The notes under the pieces are model-generated. The model did no database searches and had not been told where the DNA came from. It saw only the letters and a list, made by a program, of their open reading frames with translations. The position numbers and the translations under genes are program-made. A DNA stretch of 40,932 nucleotides. Origin: a virus. The stretch is taken from UHGV virus genome UHGV-2003109; one strand, written 5' to 3'. Numbering within the stretch: the first letter of the stretch is position 1; every line of letters begins with the position of its first letter. Positions 29,854 to 34,455 of this stretch are shown here, in pieces.

Positions 29854-30105
29854 TTATTCTCCTGAAAAAGCAGAAAAGCCAGCTTTTATTCCGATCTCTT
29901 TCAATGCCTGTAATGAAGTGACAAACTCACCTTCGCGCAAGATAAATCCGTCCGTGACCCGAGCATCCACAAAATTAATTAACGCAGCCCCATTCTTTCG
30001 CAAACACAGAATGCGGTAATGACTAACAATGTTTCCATTTTCAACGCACACAGCATAGAGGCCATCTTCACAAAAAATTTTACGCAGTTCTTCGATGTTC
30101 ATCAT
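29854..30105 (-). CDS. Hypothetical 83-aa protein, no recognisable family
   Basis: Tandem ATG start preceded by GGAAGGA RBS. Confidence 0.5.
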   Translation of the reverse strand: MMNIEELRKIFCEDGLYAVCVENGNIVSHYRILCLRKNGAALINFVDARVTDGFILREGEFVTSLQALKEIGIKAGFSAFSGE

Positions 30106-30321: not shown

Positions 30322-30477
30322 TTACTCCTCAGGTTCGTAAGCTGTGAAGACAGCGACCTCCGTCTGCCCGGTTCGGATTCGTACCTCGCAGAGGTCTTTC
30401 CTCGTTACCAGTGCCGTCACTATGACGGTTAAACAGATGACGATCAGGGCGATTAACATCGCCTTTTGCTGCTTCAT
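30322..30477 (-). CDS. hokD: Hok-family type I toxin (HokD/RelF-identical peptide)
   Basis: MKQQKAMLIALIVICLTVIVTALVTRKDLCEVRIRTGQTEVAVFTAYEPEE; AAGGAGA RBS; track ORF is an in-frame N-terminal extension. Confidence 0.9.
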   Translation of the reverse strand: MKQQKAMLIALIVICLTVIVTALVTRKDLCEVRIRTGQTEVAVFTAYEPEE

Positions 30478-30659
30478 AGCCTGCTTCTCCTTGCCTTTCG
30501 GCACGTAAGAGGCTAACCTACATGTGTCTAGCATGAAATTGGCCTCAGATTAATGTTAAGCGTCTTGCAGGACGCGTAATGTTAACTGGGGCTTTTCTCT
30601 ATCTGCCGTTGGTGTTCATGCCCGAGGCAGATAGCCTCAAGCACCCGCAGCAATTTTAC

Positions 30660-30937: not shown

Positions 30938-31969
30938 CTACCAATTGATGAAGTCAGTGATGTTATCCAACCTGGTTACAGTAACTTCCCGTCCTAACAA
31001 ATATTGCCAGTATGCCTCACGGTCATTTTGTTCACCTGCACCGCTCCACTCAATTACTCTTAAATGCTTAGAGGTTAGGTAAGGTCGAATAAGCAGGTTA
31101 AGGTGTTCATCGAGGCCAGAATAACCAAACAGTATTATTTCTTCTGATTCAAATAATGCAAACTGCAAATAATCCCAGTACGTAGAAAGAACATTAGATG
31201 CTGCTATAACTGACGGTTTCCTTTTTATATGCGTTAACACTATATGTTCGCTAGGCTCATCCCTGTCAACCGTAAGTTGAGAACGTGAAAGTTTTAAGAC
31301 GGTCTCACCCTGATTAACAAATAGTGGTGAGCCATGCAAATGCAAATAATAACCAAACCTACGATTATATTTCCGTTCGAGCGCTTCGGCGGAAAATCCG
31401 TGGCCTAACATCCCATCAACCAGATACCCATCATACCCGCTGAATATATCATTATCTATGAATGAGTTGTATAATAATTTGTCATAGTTTAATGTCGCAA
31501 TATGAGTGCGTGTATTTTTTACAAATTCCACTAGCGCATTTTCGAATCTTTGCGGCAACCCTTCACCGTAATTATGCAAACTAGTTGCAACTTTGTGGAT
31601 ATAAGTGGCGGTGATTTCGGGGAAGTTTAGTCCATCGTCAGTAAGCCAATGCTCGTTTCCTTCTCCAATTTGCGCAAGAGCCTTACAATATGTGATAGCT
31701 TGGTGAAGGGTATCCAACTCATGTTCCCCTGCCGGTGGACCTTGCCGCTGAAGACAGCGTTCGATAAGTTGCTTATGGACATCGTTTAAGAAATTGGATC
31801 GATGCCAAATTTCTGCCAACGCCCTGTCTAAGGAAAAATGAGCAGGATCTAAAGCCATACCAAGACCGTTGCCGAATATTATTAATTTTCGTGCCATATA
31901 GGAGGACTCATGTTGGAATAATCTTGAGTAGCGTAACGCGATACGCCGCAGTTTGGAAGTAATATACAT
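30938..31969 (-). CDS. SIR2-like (SIR2_2 / DHS-like NAD-binding) stand-alone protein; candidate defence NADase
   Basis: Motifs LIIFGNGLGMALD (Gly-rich N-terminus), ATLNYDKLL (conserved Asn) and YLHLHGS (conserved His), then ILFGYSGLDEH; AT-rich gene; start at 31969 or 31897. Confidence 0.65.
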   Translation of the reverse strand: MYITSKLRRIALRYSRLFQHESSYMARKLIIFGNGLGMALDPAHFSLDRALAEIWHRSNFLNDVHKQLIERCLQRQGPPAGEHELDTLHQAITYCKALAQIGEGNEHWLTDDGLNFPEITATYIHKVATSLHNYGEGLPQRFENALVEFVKNTRTHIATLNYDKLLYNSFIDNDIFSGYDGYLVDGMLGHGFSAEALERKYNRRFGYYLHLHGSPLFVNQGETVLKLSRSQLTVDRDEPSEHIVLTHIKRKPSVIAASNVLSTYWDYLQFALFESEEIILFGYSGLDEHLNLLIRPYLTSKHLRVIEWSGAGEQNDREAYWQYLLGREVTVTRLDNITDFINW

Positions 31970-32313
31970 TCCGTTTGATTACACTCGATATTACAGACTT
32001 GCATGCAAAGAAATCCAAGCTGTTAGGTAAATAGAGACCGCAGAGGAAAGTGATATAGTCTATAAAAACCAACGAATAGCGGCATGTCTTCTGCGACCTC
32101 CATTTACCCAAATAGCACTTATCTAGTAAAATTCAATGATGTATTGCATAGTATTTCGTATGAATTGATATAGATAAGAATCAGTCTTAATTCATTAGCA
32201 AATATTGAAACTCAAAATGTCTGTTTTTGATACAAAGCTGACAACCAGACCAGTTCTAGCCATGTGCCACCAAAATGTCAATTCATATCTGAAGTAATGC
32301 TCTTTAATTTCGT

Positions 32314-32736
32314 TCACCGTGGTAATGTTCGAATATTTCCCTTATAAAATGCCAAAATCCGCTGCATAACTTCGCTCTTCCGGCACTCGCGACAGATTAT
32401 GTTCATACGCCTGTCGTAGCGACGTATTTCTCCGTCAGGTAATGACCAGATAAGGTCCGGATCAACCACAGCAGGTTTCTTCACCTTTGCCCTCGAGAGT
32501 TTTTTGCGGGCGTTTTGCCAGTCCTTACGCGCCTGTTCAGAGGGGAATAACCCGTAGCCGGAGTTGTATACATCGCCACTGGCAACCAGCTCTCTGGCAA
32601 GAACGCTCATCAGATATCTTGTCGCACCTGTTTTAGCTTCCAGTTGCCGTAGCGTCTCACGACCGCTCTGGCGCACGAGTTCCACCACCTGCCCTTTAAT
32701 TTTTTCCCGCTCTTCTTGTGTAAAAACTTTTGCCAC
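32314..32736 (-). CDS. Hypothetical basic protein downstream of the replication gene (possible DNA-binding protein)
   Basis: Non-ATG start with AAGGGGG RBS; Lys/Arg-rich with CRECRK motif; occupies the lambda P position but unlike P. Confidence 0.5.
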   Translation of the reverse strand: MAKVFTQEEREKIKGQVVELVRQSGRETLRQLEAKTGATRYLMSVLARELVASGDVYNSGYGLFPSEQARKDWQNARKKLSRAKVKKPAVVDPDLIWSLPDGEIRRYDRRMNIICRECRKSEVMQRILAFYKGNIRTLPR

Positions 32737-32776
32737 AAGTCCCCCTTAAAATTACCTCATGACCTGAAATCAACAC

Positions 32777-33796
32777 TTATCCCCTGAAACCAGGCGGAAT
32801 TTCTGTATCCGGTTCAGAAATATGATTCACACAACGCTGTACAGACGAACGCCCCAGACGGATGACCAGTTCATCCCATTTTTCACGAAGCTTTGACGGG
32901 CTCATGATGTTTTTTACCCAGAATGGATCTCGCTGTACCCGACCAAACATTTCGCAAATTTGTCTGTGGCTTCTGCCATCCAGCATCCGCATTGTGCGCA
33001 CGTCATTGGCCCAGGCAGTCCAGTTAGGCTCTTTTGGTCGCATGATCTCGCCATCATCACTGGCTGCCTGTTCGTAGAGACCCACGATCCGCCCCCAGAT
33101 CCACTGCGCACACGCCAAATCCTCCCTGCTACCCCACTGGCGTTTTTTCGCACTAAACACAACCGCGTCGGAGTTCCGGGTTAAAAAATCCTGTTCAGTC
33201 GTCTGCGGGTCCGGTTGCGAAGCTTCCGGACGAAAAGTGTTTTTATTCTCTGTAGTAATCTCTGTTGTATTCTCTGTAAGATCATCAGGCCATTTTGACC
33301 CGATGACATTGGGTCGTTTTGAACCAATGGAGCGTTTCATTTTGACCTCTTCCATCGTGTCATTTTGACCTGATGGAGCGGCGCATTTTGAACCGATGGA
33401 TTCGCTCAATTTGCCACCATCTAAAAGCTCGCTCCCATAGTTGATCGTGTAGAAATTGGTCATATCGCGCTTTGATTTATTGAGCTTTTCACAACGCAAA
33501 AGCCCCAGCGTTTTCAGACTTGCAAACGCGCGCTTTAACGTTGACTCTGACCAGAATGGGAACTGTTCCAGCCATTGTTCCGTTGTGTTGTAAATCCAGC
33601 GAACACCATCACATTCCATGCCGGAATTGGTATCTCTCAACCAGTAATGCAACTGCTGCAACACAATGGCTTCATTTAAGCCAATCTTCATCGCAAGCTG
33701 TGTGTTTATAACCAGTGGGCGTTCAGCAAAAAGAAGGCTCATAATTCCATCCAGCTTTTTGTTGGTATTGCTGTCGATACGCAAGTTTGAAAGCAA
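32777..33796 (-). CDS. Replication initiation / replisome organiser protein (lambda O-like role)
   Basis: N-terminal region (…RPLVINTQLAMKIGLNEAIVLQQLHYWL…) typical of phage replisome organisers; iterons embedded in the coding sequence. Confidence 0.8.
   Translation of the reverse strand: MLSNLRIDSNTNKKLDGIMSLLFAERPLVINTQLAMKIGLNEAIVLQQLHYWLRDTNSGMECDGVRWIYNTTEQWLEQFPFWSESTLKRAFASLKTLGLLRCEKLNKSKRDMTNFYTINYGSELLDGGKLSESIGSKCAAPSGQNDTMEEVKMKRSIGSKRPNVIGSKWPDDLTENTTEITTENKNTFRPEASQPDPQTTEQDFLTRNSDAVVFSAKKRQWGSREDLACAQWIWGRIVGLYEQAASDDGEIMRPKEPNWTAWANDVRTMRMLDGRSHRQICEMFGRVQRDPFWVKNIMSPSKLREKWDELVIRLGRSSVQRCVNHISEPDTEIPPGFRG
33291..33420. repeat. Origin iterons: five to six ~22-bp direct repeats (core CATTTTGACC / CATTTTGAACC) inside the O-like gene
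   Basis: Direct reading: cattttgacccgatg, cgttttgaaccaatgg, cattttgacctc, cattttgacctgatgg, cattttgaaccgatgg, caatttgccacc. Confidence 0.7.
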
Positions 33797-34244
33797 TTGC
33801 TTTTTCTATAAGTTCGTCAGTTTCACGATCCACTACGGCAGGATCAGCAAAAAGCAGTCCGGACTCCACCACATCGCCATATTCTTTGTTTAACCCGGCG
33901 ATCATGTACGTGATGCTTTTTCCGTCACTAATTTCACGATACAACCTGAAATCATTAATCCGGATAGCCTCCATAATTGCAGGCACTAGCGCCGTGAACT
34001 TTTCACGCTTATCCCTGGTGTCGATAGCCTTCCAGCGTTCGAATATCTTCACTCGATTAACGCCAAGCGCTCGCTGATCAACCGCGCCACCTTCATCTGT
34101 GACACGCTGAACATCGATGTTCGGGCGCTCTTTCAAAGCCCAGAATGCTTCAGTGATTAATATCGTCGCCTGCTCCTGTGTCATTCCTGGTCGACATATC
34201 CAGGCATCCAGAGCCTCACGAGCCTGTTCAGGAGTGATTTTCAT
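33723..34244 (-). CDS. YdaT-like protein (cII position)
   Basis: 173 aa; motifs ...KIFERWKAIDTRDKREKFTALVPAIMEAI... recalled as YdaT-family; lies between the cro-like gene and the replication gene. Confidence 0.55.
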   Translation of the reverse strand: MKITPEQAREALDAWICRPGMTQEQATILITEAFWALKERPNIDVQRVTDEGGAVDQRALGVNRVKIFERWKAIDTRDKREKFTALVPAIMEAIRINDFRLYREISDGKSITYMIAGLNKEYGDVVESGLLFADPAVVDRETDELIEKAIAFKLAYRQQYQQKAGWNYEPSFC

Positions 34245-34455
34245 TGTTCAACCGCCCCGCCCGCTTCGTCTTACGATATTCGTCATAAACCTTGGGATCA
34301 TACTGAAGCTCGCCGCCAGATGCCTCCTGTAGACGCATCGCGCGACCTTCAGGAACCAGCTCTTGCCATTGAGAAACAGCAGATGGGTCAACGCCAGCAG
34401 CTTTCGCTACTTTGGCTTTCGTACCGTAAAAATTAATTACGTCTGATTTAAACAT
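34228..34455 (-). CDS. dicC: Cro-like regulator DicC (YdaS family)
   Basis: MFKSDVINFYGTKAKVAKAAGV...VPEGRAMRLQEASGGELQYDPKVYDEY; divergent from dicA. Confidence 0.8.
   Translation of the reverse strand: MFKSDVINFYGTKAKVAKAAGVDPSAVSQWQELVPEGRAMRLQEASGGELQYDPKVYDEYRKTKRAGRLNNENHS

What the first reader, a model, noticed from the sequence alone, without database searches (positions are those of the whole stretch)
32314..33796. Replication module appears to lack a lambda P or DnaC-type helicase loader
Lambdoid phages normally pair the O-like initiator with a helicase loader (P, DnaC-like) or primase/helicase. Here the iteron-containing O-like gene is followed only by a 140-aa basic protein with a non-ATG start and AAGGGGG RBS, and then the AT-rich island. 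Either the 140-aa protein is a novel compact loader/adaptor or the phage relies wholly on host DnaC.
Basis: inference. Interest (0 to 1): 0.4.

Follow-up and report, generated by a model that had tools for sequence, protein, structure and literature searches.

The report
Loader-less lambda-type phage replication module
This E. coli prophage has a lambda-O-like origin-binding protein but no helicase-loader gene, an arrangement common in E. coli; the 140-aa neighbour is a Ren-like accessory protein, not a loader, and the initiator ends in the same short tail as the host protein DnaT, which probably lets it borrow the host loader DnaC.

Summary
The window is an intact Qin-like lambdoid prophage. 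Its early-right operon reads cro-like, cII/YdaT-like, O-like initiator (32777-33742, minus strand; five 23-bp iterons and an AT-rich stretch inside the gene), then a 140-aa GTG-started gene. No DnaC-, P- or DnaB-type gene is found anywhere in the 40.9 kb.

The "novel compact loader" reading is not supported. The 140-aa protein is DUF977, in the same PHROG as lambda Ren. It is a winged-helix protein, and it sits in the same place in sister phages that do carry a DnaC-like loader.

The "relies on host DnaC" reading is the best supported, and a concrete handle emerged. The initiator has a lambda-O-type C-terminal domain that ends in ...SEPDTEIPPGFRG, the extreme C-terminus of E. coli DnaT. Across phages and genomes this tail sits upstream of DnaC/YdaV-clade loader genes or of no loader gene, never upstream of P. 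P-linked and mEpX1-type-loader-linked initiators carry other tails.

Near-identical initiators occur with or without a 1.56-kb ydaV-ydaW cassette. The loader-less junction is present in 1,921 of 5,426 complete E. coli genomes and in deposited phage genomes. The arrangement is common; the mechanism is inferred, not shown.

The parts
32777..33742 (-). O-like replication initiator gene, 321 aa from the ATG at 33742 (the mechanical ORF extends to a TTG at 33796). Layout: N-terminal winged-helix domain, disordered linker, lambda-O-type C-terminal domain, DnaT-like tail.
   Evidence: phrog_391 'replication initiation O-like', E 1.8e-91. BLASTP to lambda O 135-270: 34% identity, E 1e-26. AF2 domain layout. 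Start codon as in PGAP and the phage records. No Pfam family.
33428..33715 (-). N-terminal winged-helix domain (about aa 10-105), the presumed iteron-binding domain. It is not the lambda O N-terminal family.
   Evidence: AF2 secondary structure H-H-E-E-H-H-E-E, pLDDT 60-80. Best Foldseek PDB hits are plasmid RepA N-terminal domain and the Rep-DNA complex (4pql, 5kbj), with weak E 0.03-0.05. No PF04492 hit.
33285..33400 (.). Origin iterons: five in-phase 23-bp repeats (core GGTCAAAATG on the minus strand), plus a degenerate sixth reaching to about 33414. They lie inside the initiator gene.
   Evidence: the repeat finder families D1 and D2, spacing 23 bp. Sequence read. All three exact core copies in the 40.9-kb window lie here.
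33228..33284 (.). AT-rich stretch (67% A+T) next to the iterons, with a 24-bp direct repeat (TATTCTCTGTA). Presumed DNA-unwinding element.
   Evidence: Composition. Repeats D5 and D9. The function is inferred by analogy with ori-lambda, annotated in J02459.
32858..33190 (-). Lambda-O-type C-terminal domain (aa 185-295), helical.
   Evidence: BLASTP to lambda O. phrog_2357 is shared with lambda O. 12,336 representative homologues, many with other N-termini. No sequence homologue in the PDB, and not homologous to the DnaT core.
32780..32830 (-). C-terminal tail VNHISEPDTEIPPGFRG-COOH, the same motif as the extreme C-terminus of E. coli DnaT. Proposed docking peptide for DnaC-clade loaders.
   Evidence: phmmer against DnaT chains 2ru8, 6aep and 9zbt. 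NCBIfam DnaT positions 158-179. DnaT and YdaU sequences. Predicted disordered. Co-occurrence analyses.
32737..32776 (-). 40-nt spacer with RBS AAGGGGG (32741-32747). This is the site where sister phages carry a 1.56-kb ydaV-like (DnaC-type) plus ydaW-like cassette.
   Evidence: Sequence. Homology to loader-bearing loci stops at the O stop codon and resumes at the DUF977 start.
32314..32736 (-). DUF977 / Ren-like gene ('LygF'), 140 aa, GTG start, pI 10.1. Winged-helix accessory protein, not a loader.
   Evidence: PF06163 E 2.8e-29. phrog_142 E 4e-46, with lambda Ren in the same PHROG at E 1.6e-41. Local BLASTP to the lambda Ren C-terminus, E 2e-6. AF2 model pLDDT 75 with N-terminal winged helix above 90. 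Foldseek gives generic winged-helix matches only. No PADLOC hit.

Best explanation
This is a lambda-type theta replication module reduced to an initiator and its internal origin.

Proposed mechanism:
- The O-like protein binds the five 23-bp iterons in its own gene through its N-terminal winged helix and opens the adjacent AT-rich stretch.
- Instead of handing over to a phage loader, it recruits the host DnaB-DnaC complex.
- The proposed handle is the flexible C-terminal tail ...SEPDTEIPPGFRG-COOH. The host adaptor DnaT, encoded immediately upstream of dnaC, carries the same tail. So do many prophage initiators encoded immediately upstream of DnaC/YdaV-clade loader genes.
- Host DnaC is about 50% identical to those phage loaders, so a phage that lacks the ydaV-like cassette can still use DnaC in trans.

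The 140-aa DUF977 protein is the counterpart of lambda Ren. It is a winged-helix accessory protein at the end of the replication operon and is not needed for helicase loading.

What is shown: gene content, the iterons, the homologies, the shared tail, and the co-occurrence statistics. What is inferred: that the iterons are the origin, that host DnaC is used, and that the tail is the contact.
For: (1) No loader or helicase gene is present in the window, nor in the deposited phage genome HannyBb, which has the same module. mEp460_ev081 and PhiR42_1 also match the module.

(2) The arrangement is common.
- The junction (O tail, spacer, DUF977 start) is covered at 80% or more in 1,921 of 5,426 complete E. 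coli genomes.
- Of 80 IMG/VR loci whose initiator C-terminal domain is at least 90% identical, 41 have no loader anywhere in the locus and 38 have a YdaV-like DnaC-type gene 7 nt after the same tail.
- The two forms differ by a clean 1.56-kb indel between the O stop codon and the DUF977 start.

(3) The tail is shared with DnaT: 13 of 17 residues are identical and the last seven are all identical. Rac YdaU, which precedes the DnaC-like YdaV, has it too.

(4) Co-occurrence in viral contigs. Among 108 ORFs of 180 aa or more that end in IPPGFRG, falling into 14 sequence clusters with different N-terminal and core domains, the next genes are YdaV-like or no loader. None is P-like or DnaB-like.

(5) Co-occurrence in species-representative genomes. 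All 47 bona fide tail-bearing ORFs with enough flanking sequence (41 DnaT, 6 prophage initiators) are followed within 150 nt by a DnaC-family gene. None of 17 chance short ORFs is.

(6) The tail type co-varies with the loader type while the host stays the same.
- Lambda-P-like loaders follow initiators ending NTDWIYGV[DE]L (77 of 77, a redundant sample) or other Trp-rich tails (L168-L170).
- mEpX1-type DnaC-likes, only 28-35% identical to DnaC and YdaV, follow tails of the form KDYGQTE[IM]P[SA]WA (mEpX1, Hafnia yong1, Klebsiella RCIP0034).
- DnaC/YdaV-clade loaders, 47-79% identical to one another, follow IPPGFRG, IPSGFRG or VPAGFRG.

(7) DUF977 is present in both architectures and is in the same PHROG as Ren.
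Against: - There is no direct evidence of any contact between the tail and DnaC or DnaB.
- How DnaT recruits DnaB/DnaC is unknown. The 2026 preprimosome paper speculates that the DnaT N-terminal domain does it, and shows the DnaT C-terminal domain docking on PriA (PMC13377028).
- Brezellec et al. 2017 report DopC, an O-like protein with a DnaT C-terminal motif found by HHpred, paired with a P-like loader, DopE (PMC5509034). This is a partial counter-example at the level of the domain. I could not check whether DopC has the tail.
- The co-occurrence samples are phylogenetically redundant. At the level of independent families the numbers are small: about 7 tail families with DnaC-like genes, 4 Trp-tail families with P, and 3 of the mEpX1 type.
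- Some prophage copies could be replication-defective.
- The initiator model has low confidence (mean pLDDT 56).
Confidence: 0.6

Rival explanations
1. The initiator does use host helicase-loading machinery, but the tail contacts something other than DnaC. Candidates are PriA or PriB (hijacking the restart primosome), SSB, or DnaB directly. DnaC would then act only generically, as it does for iteron plasmids.
For: In the preprimosome structures the DnaT C-terminal domain docks on PriA and the acidic linker docks on PriB, and the authors favour the DnaT N-terminal domain for DnaB/DnaC recruitment (PMC13377028). DopC carries a DnaT C-terminal motif but pairs with a P-like loader (PMC5509034). 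The tail, acidic residues followed by IP..F, loosely recalls amphipathic C-terminal tails such as that of SSB (my own knowledge, not tested).
Against: PriA, PriB, SSB and DnaB are the same for all E. coli phages, yet the tail type changes with the loader family encoded next door: P, mEpX1-type or YdaV/DnaC-type. All 47 genuine tail-bearing genes in the species set sit directly upstream of a DnaC-family gene.
Confidence: 0.2
2. The 140-aa DUF977 protein is a novel compact helicase loader or adaptor that replaces P or DnaC.
For: It is the gene immediately after the initiator, with a strong RBS and probably co-transcribed. It is basic (pI 10.1). No experimental function for the family turned up: DUF977 occurs in only one paper of the library.
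Against: It is in the same PHROG as lambda Ren. Ren is dispensable for lambda replication (my own knowledge of lambda genetics). In 30 of 80 sister loci it lies downstream of a DnaC-like loader and a YdaW-like gene, so it co-occurs with loaders rather than substituting for them. The same holds in Shigella phage 75/02 and Klebsiella ST846phi9.2. Its fold is a winged helix and no loader fold matches. It has no Walker motif and no hit to DnaC, P or PADLOC models.
Confidence: 0.05
3. The module is a decayed remnant: the loader was deleted, and this prophage cannot replicate autonomously.
For: Loader-bearing sisters differ by a clean 1.56-kb indel, which could be a deletion. Qin-type prophages are often defective (my own knowledge).
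Against: The same loader-less module occurs in genomes deposited as phages: HannyBb (45 kb, complete), mEp460_ev081 and PhiR42_1. It is in about 35% of complete E. coli genomes with the ORFs intact and in half of the related IMG/VR contigs. At least three other initiator clusters with the tail are consistently loader-less: cluster 1 (23 ORFs), the CPS-53-like class (about 78 loci), and clusters 5 and 11. The prophage in the window has complete structural, lysis and integration modules.
Confidence: 0.05
4. Helicase loading goes through DnaA bound at the phage origin, as in pSC101, P1, F and RK2 plasmids, and the initiator only bends or opens the DNA.
For: This is the general precedent for iteron replicons without their own loader (my own knowledge).
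Against: There is no cluster of DnaA boxes. TTWTNCACA occurs 3 times in the window against 4.4 expected. The only copy near the module (32717-32725) lies inside the DUF977 gene, more than 500 bp from the iterons.
Confidence: 0.08

Closest known systems
Phage lambda O-P-ren replication module with ori-lambda inside O
   Same: Iterons plus an AT-rich stretch lie inside the initiator gene, in the region that encodes a flexible linker. The C-terminal domains are homologous (34% identity, E 1e-26). A Ren-family gene closes the module. The operon context is the same: cro, cII-like, O.
   Different: There is no P gene. The N-terminal DNA-binding domain is a different winged helix with no PF04492 hit. 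There are five 23-bp iterons rather than lambda's four 18-bp iterons as annotated in J02459. The extreme C-terminus is IPPGFRG rather than lambda's NTDWIYGVDL.
Rac prophage ydaU-ydaV-ydaW and related DnaC-like modules (for example Shigella phage 75/02 Stx)
   Same: The initiator ends in the same IPPGFRG tail. DUF977/'LygF' lies at the end of the module. Sister phages of the window carry exactly this ydaV-ydaW cassette behind a near-identical initiator.
   Different: The window lacks the DnaC-like (YdaV) and YdaW-like genes. YdaU has a DUF1376 N-terminus and a different core C-terminal domain.
E. coli DnaT-DnaC (primosomal protein I and the helicase loader)
   Same: The C-terminal motif SEPDxxIPPGFRG-COOH is identical. 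It is invariant in 45 DnaT orthologues from Enterobacteriaceae species, each directly upstream of dnaC where flank allowed. Both proteins are adaptors placed upstream of DnaB-DnaC loading.
   Different: Neither the DnaT three-helix-bundle domain (hhalign probability 0.35%) nor its N-terminal domain is present. The window protein is targeted by sequence-specific origin binding rather than through PriA and PriB. The RAST label 'Primosomal protein I' on phage copies rests on the tail only.
Iteron plasmid initiators without their own loader (pSC101 RepA, R6K pi, RK2 TrfA, P1 RepA); staphylococcal RepA_N proteins
   Same: A winged-helix initiator binds tandem iterons and relies on the host helicase and loader. 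The best structural matches of the N-terminal domain are plasmid RepA N-terminal domain structures (weak).
   Different: Those systems generally use DnaA boxes or direct contacts between the initiator and DnaB or primase (my own knowledge). Here there are no DnaA boxes, and the C-terminal domain is of the lambda-O type.
DopC-DopE (domesticated lambda O/P-like pair; Brezellec et al. 2017, PMC5509034)
   Same: It is an O-like protein in which a DnaT C-terminal element replaces part of the lambda O C-terminus. This shows that DnaT-type elements in O-like proteins have already been noticed.
   Different: DopC lacks the lambda-O C-terminal domain and iterons, is chromosomal, and pairs with a P-like loader. 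In the window the lambda-O C-terminal domain is kept and only the tail is of the DnaT type.

Membership tests
Lambda-O-type initiator with internal origin | Tandem iterons followed by an AT-rich stretch inside the initiator coding sequence | tested here: met
   Five 23-bp repeats at 33285-33400 and a 67% A+T stretch at 33228-33284. Origin activity itself was not tested.
Lambda-O-type initiator with internal origin | C-terminal domain homologous to lambda O residues about 156-299 | tested here: met
   BLASTP 34% identity over 148 aa, E 1e-26. phrog_2357, 277 and 391 are shared with lambda O.
Lambda-O-type initiator with internal origin | N-terminal Phage_rep_O domain (PF04492) | tested here: not met
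   No Pfam hit even at E <= 1, whereas lambda O scores 5.7e-36. The N-terminus is another winged helix.
Lambda-O-type initiator with internal origin | Cognate P-type loader gene immediately downstream | tested here: not met
   No P-like sequence in the window.
DnaT (primosomal protein I) | Extreme C-terminal motif SEPDxxIPPGFRG-COOH | tested here: met
   phmmer against 2ru8, 6aep and 9zbt_D. NCBIfam NF002770 positions 158-179, 16.8 bits against a cut-off of 201.
DnaT (primosomal protein I) | Three-helix-bundle ssDNA-binding C-terminal domain and PhdYeFM-like N-terminal domain | tested here: not met
   hhalign probability 0.35%. The profile of the C-terminal domain finds no DnaT chain in the PDB. 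No Pfam domains.
Helicase loaders (DnaC/IstB AAA+, lambda P, DnaD-like), applied to the 140-aa protein | Sequence or fold similarity to a known loader; an ATPase motif for the DnaC type | tested here: not met
   Only PF06163 in Pfam, and nothing in NCBIfam. Foldseek against the PDB returns only winged-helix regulators. No Walker A motif is visible in the sequence (read).
Helicase loaders, applied to the initiator | An embedded loader domain | tested here: inconclusive
   Several PHROGs labelled 'DnaD-like helicase loader' match, but the same PHROGs match lambda O. The label therefore reflects the O-type C-terminal domain and is not a demonstrated loader. There is no AAA+ domain.
Ren / DUF977 (PF06163, phrog_142) | Full-length profile match and position at the end of the replication operon | tested here: met
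   PF06163 residues 1-135 of 140, E 2.8e-29. phrog_142 E 4e-46, with lambda Ren at E 1.6e-41. Synteny.
Ren / DUF977 (PF06163, phrog_142) | Ren phenotype (protection from Rex exclusion) | not testable with these tools
   Requires phage genetics.

The most novel reading that the evidence does not exclude
The last 7-15 residues of lambda-O-type and related phage initiators act as a portable "loader code":
- IPxGFRG-COOH docks DnaC/YdaV-clade loaders.
- Trp-rich tails such as NTDWIYGVDL dock lambda-P-type loaders.
- KDYGQTEIPSWA-type tails dock mEpX1-type DnaC-like loaders.

On this reading, the E. coli DnaT tail is the missing element that hands DnaB-DnaC to the restart primosome. The dnaT-dnaC operon would then be a domesticated prophage initiator-loader pair. 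Loader-less phages like this one would be possible precisely because their initiators speak the host DnaT/DnaC dialect.
Probability: 0.4. Interest if true: 0.7.

Novelty: new variant of a known kind. Interest (0 to 1): 0.45.

Why it matters
The loader-less module is not rare. It is in about a third of complete E. coli genomes and in deposited phage genomes. Yet its initiator is annotated "hypothetical protein", has no Pfam family, and is sometimes mislabelled "primosomal protein I".

Recognising it as a lambda-O-type initiator that probably borrows host DnaC would correct annotation. It also predicts host dependence: dnaC alleles should matter for these phages, while groP-type dnaB alleles selected against lambda P may not.

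The wider value lies in the tail. How DnaT recruits DnaB-DnaC, and how lambda O contacts P, are both unresolved in the papers read (PMC13377028, PMC4132743, PMC12661323). The co-variation of short C-terminal tails with loader families gives simple, testable candidates for both contacts.

Tried and rejected
- Pfam and NCBIfam on the initiator gave nothing beyond the tail.
- The profile of the C-terminal domain found no relative in the PDB. hhalign against DnaT showed that the cores are unrelated. I therefore dropped the idea that the whole C-terminal half is a DnaT domain.
- The AF2 model of the initiator was poor (pLDDT 56, built from a shallow alignment at 70-100% identity). It was used only for the domain layout. 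Its Foldseek hits are weak.
- DnaA-box scan: at chance level.
- Literature searches for 'initiator-solo', 'DUF977' and 'PPGFRG' found nothing relevant. My memory that Weigel and Seitz (2006) classified initiator-only phage modules could not be verified.
- I first thought the DnaT-like tail would mark loader-less phages specifically. This was rejected when Rac YdaU, which is followed by DnaC-like YdaV, showed the same tail.
- The search for related loci returns the 80 best matches, so the samples are redundant. A query with P0136, meant to retrieve lambda-like Trp tails, mostly returned CPS-53-type loci with IPAGFRG tails.
- About a quarter of the in-frame genome-wide hits to the tail pattern (20 of 71), in unrelated phyla, are chance short ORFs and were set aside.
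- Complex prediction of tail with DnaC was not possible with the tools.
Full report
**What the window is.** The 40.9-kb window is 100% identical to a prophage of E. coli N1420 inserted next to rspAB. It is a complete Qin-like lambdoid prophage. It has integrase, excisionase, a RecE-like exonuclease, dicB, a cI-like repressor, early-right genes, Q, lysis genes and a full lambda-like head and tail set.

**Checking the observation.** On the minus strand the early-right operon reads as follows.
- Cro-like gene, 34228-34455.
- YdaT/cII-like gene, 33723-34244.
- An initiator ORF.
- A 40-nt spacer.
- A 140-aa ORF, 32314-32736.
- A stretch of 60% A+T that holds a SIR2-family gene, then hokD, rem, ydfU and Q.

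The initiator ORF is mechanically 339 aa from a TTG at 33796. PGAP and two phage annotations start it at the ATG at 33742, giving 321 aa.

Five in-phase 23-bp repeats lie at 33285-33400, with core GGTCAAAATG. All three exact copies of that core in the window are here. A 57-bp stretch of 67% A+T follows. The repeats encode a repeated IGSK motif in a segment that AlphaFold2 leaves disordered. This matches the way ori-lambda sits in the linker of O (annotation of J02459).

The 140-aa ORF starts at GTG 32736, 4 nt after AAGGGGG, and has pI 10.1.

No loader or helicase is annotated anywhere in the prophage. tblastn with DnaC, DnaB, YdaV, lambda P, two further P-like proteins and ten phage DnaC-like loaders finds nothing at E <= 0.01.

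**The 140-aa protein.**
- It is Pfam DUF977 (E 2.8e-29, residues 1-135).
- It falls in phrog_142, 'Ren-like exclusion protein' (E 4e-46). Lambda Ren itself scores 1.6e-41 against the same PHROG.
- The two proteins share the C-terminal motif CRECRKSEVMQRILAFY / FKECRQSAAMKRVLAVY.
- The AlphaFold2 model (pLDDT 75, N-terminal 80 residues above 90) is a winged helix followed by a basic disordered linker and a small, low-confidence C-terminal unit.
- Foldseek against the PDB returns only MarR/GntR/ArsR-type winged helices and no loader.
- Synteny is the strongest argument. Among 80 IMG/VR loci with an initiator C-terminal domain at least 90% identical, DUF977 follows the initiator directly in 41. 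In 30 it follows a YdaV-like DnaC-type gene and a YdaW-like gene. It also follows DnaC-like genes in Shigella phage 75/02 Stx and Klebsiella ST846phi9.2. A Ren-like gene follows the loader in mEpX1.
- It therefore accompanies loaders rather than replacing them.

**The initiator.** It has no Pfam family and is called "hypothetical protein" by PGAP. It nevertheless has more than 12,000 representative homologues. Its layout is as follows.
- N-terminal winged helix. The best structural matches are plasmid RepA N-terminal domains 4pql and 5kbj, with weak E-values.
- Disordered linker, residues 110-174.
- Helical C-terminal domain.
- Disordered tail.

The C-terminal domain is homologous to lambda O residues 135-270 (34% identity, E 1e-26), so "O-like" is correct for this half. 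The N-terminal half is not the lambda O family.

The last 17 residues, VNHISEPDTEIPPGFRG, match the extreme C-terminus of E. coli DnaT, VNTVSEPDSQIPPGFRG. The DnaT core domains are not present. This tail explains why RAST labels phage copies "Primosomal protein I".

**Is the loader-less state real and viable?**
- The same initiator plus DUF977 pair, with no loader in the whole genome, is found in the deposited phage genome HannyBb. mEp460_ev081 and PhiR42_1 also match the module.
- The junction (O tail, spacer, DUF977 start) is covered at 80% or more in 1,921 of 5,426 complete E. coli genomes.
- Loader-bearing sisters differ by a clean 1.56-kb cassette (ydaV-like plus ydaW-like) inserted exactly between the O stop codon and the DUF977 start.
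- Hence the loader gene is facultative behind one and the same initiator. This argues that a host protein can do the job.

**What the tail goes with.**
- Rac YdaU, which precedes the DnaC-like YdaV, ends in the same tail. The tail therefore does not mark loader-less phages as such.
- An exact-pattern scan of IMG/VR for IPPGFRG-stop gave 108 ORFs of 180 aa or more in 14 clusters, with different N-terminal and core domains. Two clusters carry a full DnaT-like C-terminal domain. Their next genes are YdaV-like loaders or no loader (DUF977, or a YfdN-like PerC/winged-helix protein). None is P-like or DnaB-like.
- In the species-representative genome set, all 47 genuine tail-bearing ORFs with enough flank are followed within 150 nt by a DnaC-family gene. 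These are 41 DnaT orthologues from many Enterobacteriaceae genera and 6 prophage initiators. None of 17 chance short ORFs is.
- In the reverse direction, initiators upstream of lambda-P-like genes end in NTDWIYGV[DE]L (77 of 77, a redundant sample) or other Trp-rich tails (L168-L170).
- Initiators upstream of a second, distant DnaC-like clade end in KDYGQTE[IM]P[SA]WA. That clade (mEpX1, Hafnia yong1, Klebsiella RCIP0034) is 28-35% identical to DnaC and YdaV.
- Loaders that follow IPPGFRG, IPSGFRG or VPAGFRG tails form one clade, 47-79% identical to one another. It includes host DnaC, which is 50% identical to YdaV.
- All these phages infect enterobacteria that share PriA, PriB, SSB and DnaB. 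The co-variation of tail with loader family therefore points to the loader, or the loader-helicase complex, as the tail's partner.

**Proposed mechanism (inferred).** The initiator binds its iterons, opens the AT-rich stretch, and recruits host DnaB-DnaC through its C-terminal domain and DnaT-type tail. Sister phages bring their own DnaC paralogue, and this one does not need to. No DnaA-box cluster supports a route through DnaA.

**Caveats.**
- No contact has been shown.
- The papers read state that the way DnaT recruits DnaB/DnaC is unknown. They favour the DnaT N-terminal domain for that role and show the DnaT C-terminal domain docking on PriA (PMC13377028, PMC4132743).
- DopC, an O-like protein with a DnaT C-terminal motif, pairs with a P-like loader (PMC5509034).
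- At the level of independent families the counts are small.
- The lambda O-P contact is also structurally unresolved (PMC12661323).

**Comparison with known systems and novelty.**
- The module is a lambda-type initiator/origin unit with a Ren-family gene. It lacks P and carries a different N-terminal domain and tail.
- It is closest to the Rac-type ydaU-ydaV-ydaW modules, minus the loader cassette.
- It resembles iteron plasmids in relying on the host loader.
- DnaT-type elements in O-like proteins have been noted before (PMC5509034). I found no paper that spells out the tail motif.
- I file it as a new variant of a known kind. The arrangement is common and probably functional. The interesting residue is the testable hypothesis that tails specify loaders.

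**Verdict.** The "novel loader" reading is rejected. The "host DnaC" reading is favoured (about 0.6), with a specific candidate handle. Overall interest is moderate (0.45).

Noticed in passing
window 30938-31969 (-), within the AT-rich stretch 30938-32313: A 343-aa SIR2-family gene (PF13289, E 7.5e-6) with weak PADLOC hits to Aga_SIR2, SIR2 and PDC-S21. It sits in a 60% A+T island directly after the replication module. Related phages carry different cargo at the same spot: a methyltransferase plus a hypothetical gene in HannyBb, and a 1.35-kb opposite-strand gene in mEp460_ev081. It looks like a swappable defence-type moron slot.
   Followed up: partly
IMG/VR loci, clusters 5 and 11 (for example L218 6527-7342 minus strand, L227 1889-2716): Some phage initiators (about 271-275 aa) carry not only the tail but a full DnaT-like C-terminal domain (FHHDQWQQKLARS...IPPGFRG) fused to a different N-terminal domain. 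They are followed by unknown 114-155-aa ORFs and no loader. This is relevant to a possible phage origin of dnaT.
   Followed up: partly
L088-L167 (CPS-53/KpLE1-like loci), for example L088 5001-6433: This is another loader-less class. An initiator with an HTH N-terminus, the same lambda-O-type C-terminal domain and the tail YSQIPAGFRG overlaps by 4 nt a 164-aa YfdN-like gene (winged helix plus PerC-like; PF06069 E 7e-8, phrog_1324 'transcriptional activator').
   Followed up: partly
L457 (mEpX1) 1416-2261, L456 (Hafnia yong1) 1461-2339, L459 (Klebsiella RCIP0034) 1401-2255: A third conserved initiator tail, ...F[ST][AG]KDYGQTE[IM]P[SA]WA.., is found upstream of a distinct DnaC-like clade. Pseudomonas phage Skulduggery has a related ending, ...NDYQNTADADLPDWMRGEDE.
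   Followed up: partly
proteins P0001, P0002, P0004: 448-aa database proteins carry a YdaT_toxin Pfam domain and cover 99% of the initiator at 99-100% identity; one of them is seen on 56 contigs. They look like fusions, or annotation read-through, of the overlapping cII/YdaT-like and initiator genes, which overlap by 20 nt in the window (33723-33742).
   Followed up: no
window 30322-30534 (-) and 29854-30105 (-): A hokD/mok-type type I toxin (PF01848, E 3e-23) and rem lie between the SIR2 island and ydfU (DUF968/HNH). This is the same order as in K-12 Qin, where the replication genes are missing (the K-12 comparison is from my own knowledge).
   Followed up: no
L463-L582 (species genome set): The DnaT tail [ST][EQ]PD..IPPGFRG is invariant across about 45 Enterobacteriaceae species (Citrobacter, Kluyvera, Kosakonia, Phytobacter, Pseudocitrobacter, Enterobacter and others). 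The residues just before it vary. dnaC starts within -3 to +3 nt of the dnaT stop in nearly all of them.
   Followed up: yes
L453 (Aeromonas phage pAEv1818) 1551-2468: The initiator upstream of a DnaC-clade loader (51% identical to E. coli DnaC) ends in a degenerate version of the tail, ...GEKPPGFN. This suggests that the motif drifts outside Enterobacteriaceae.
   Followed up: no
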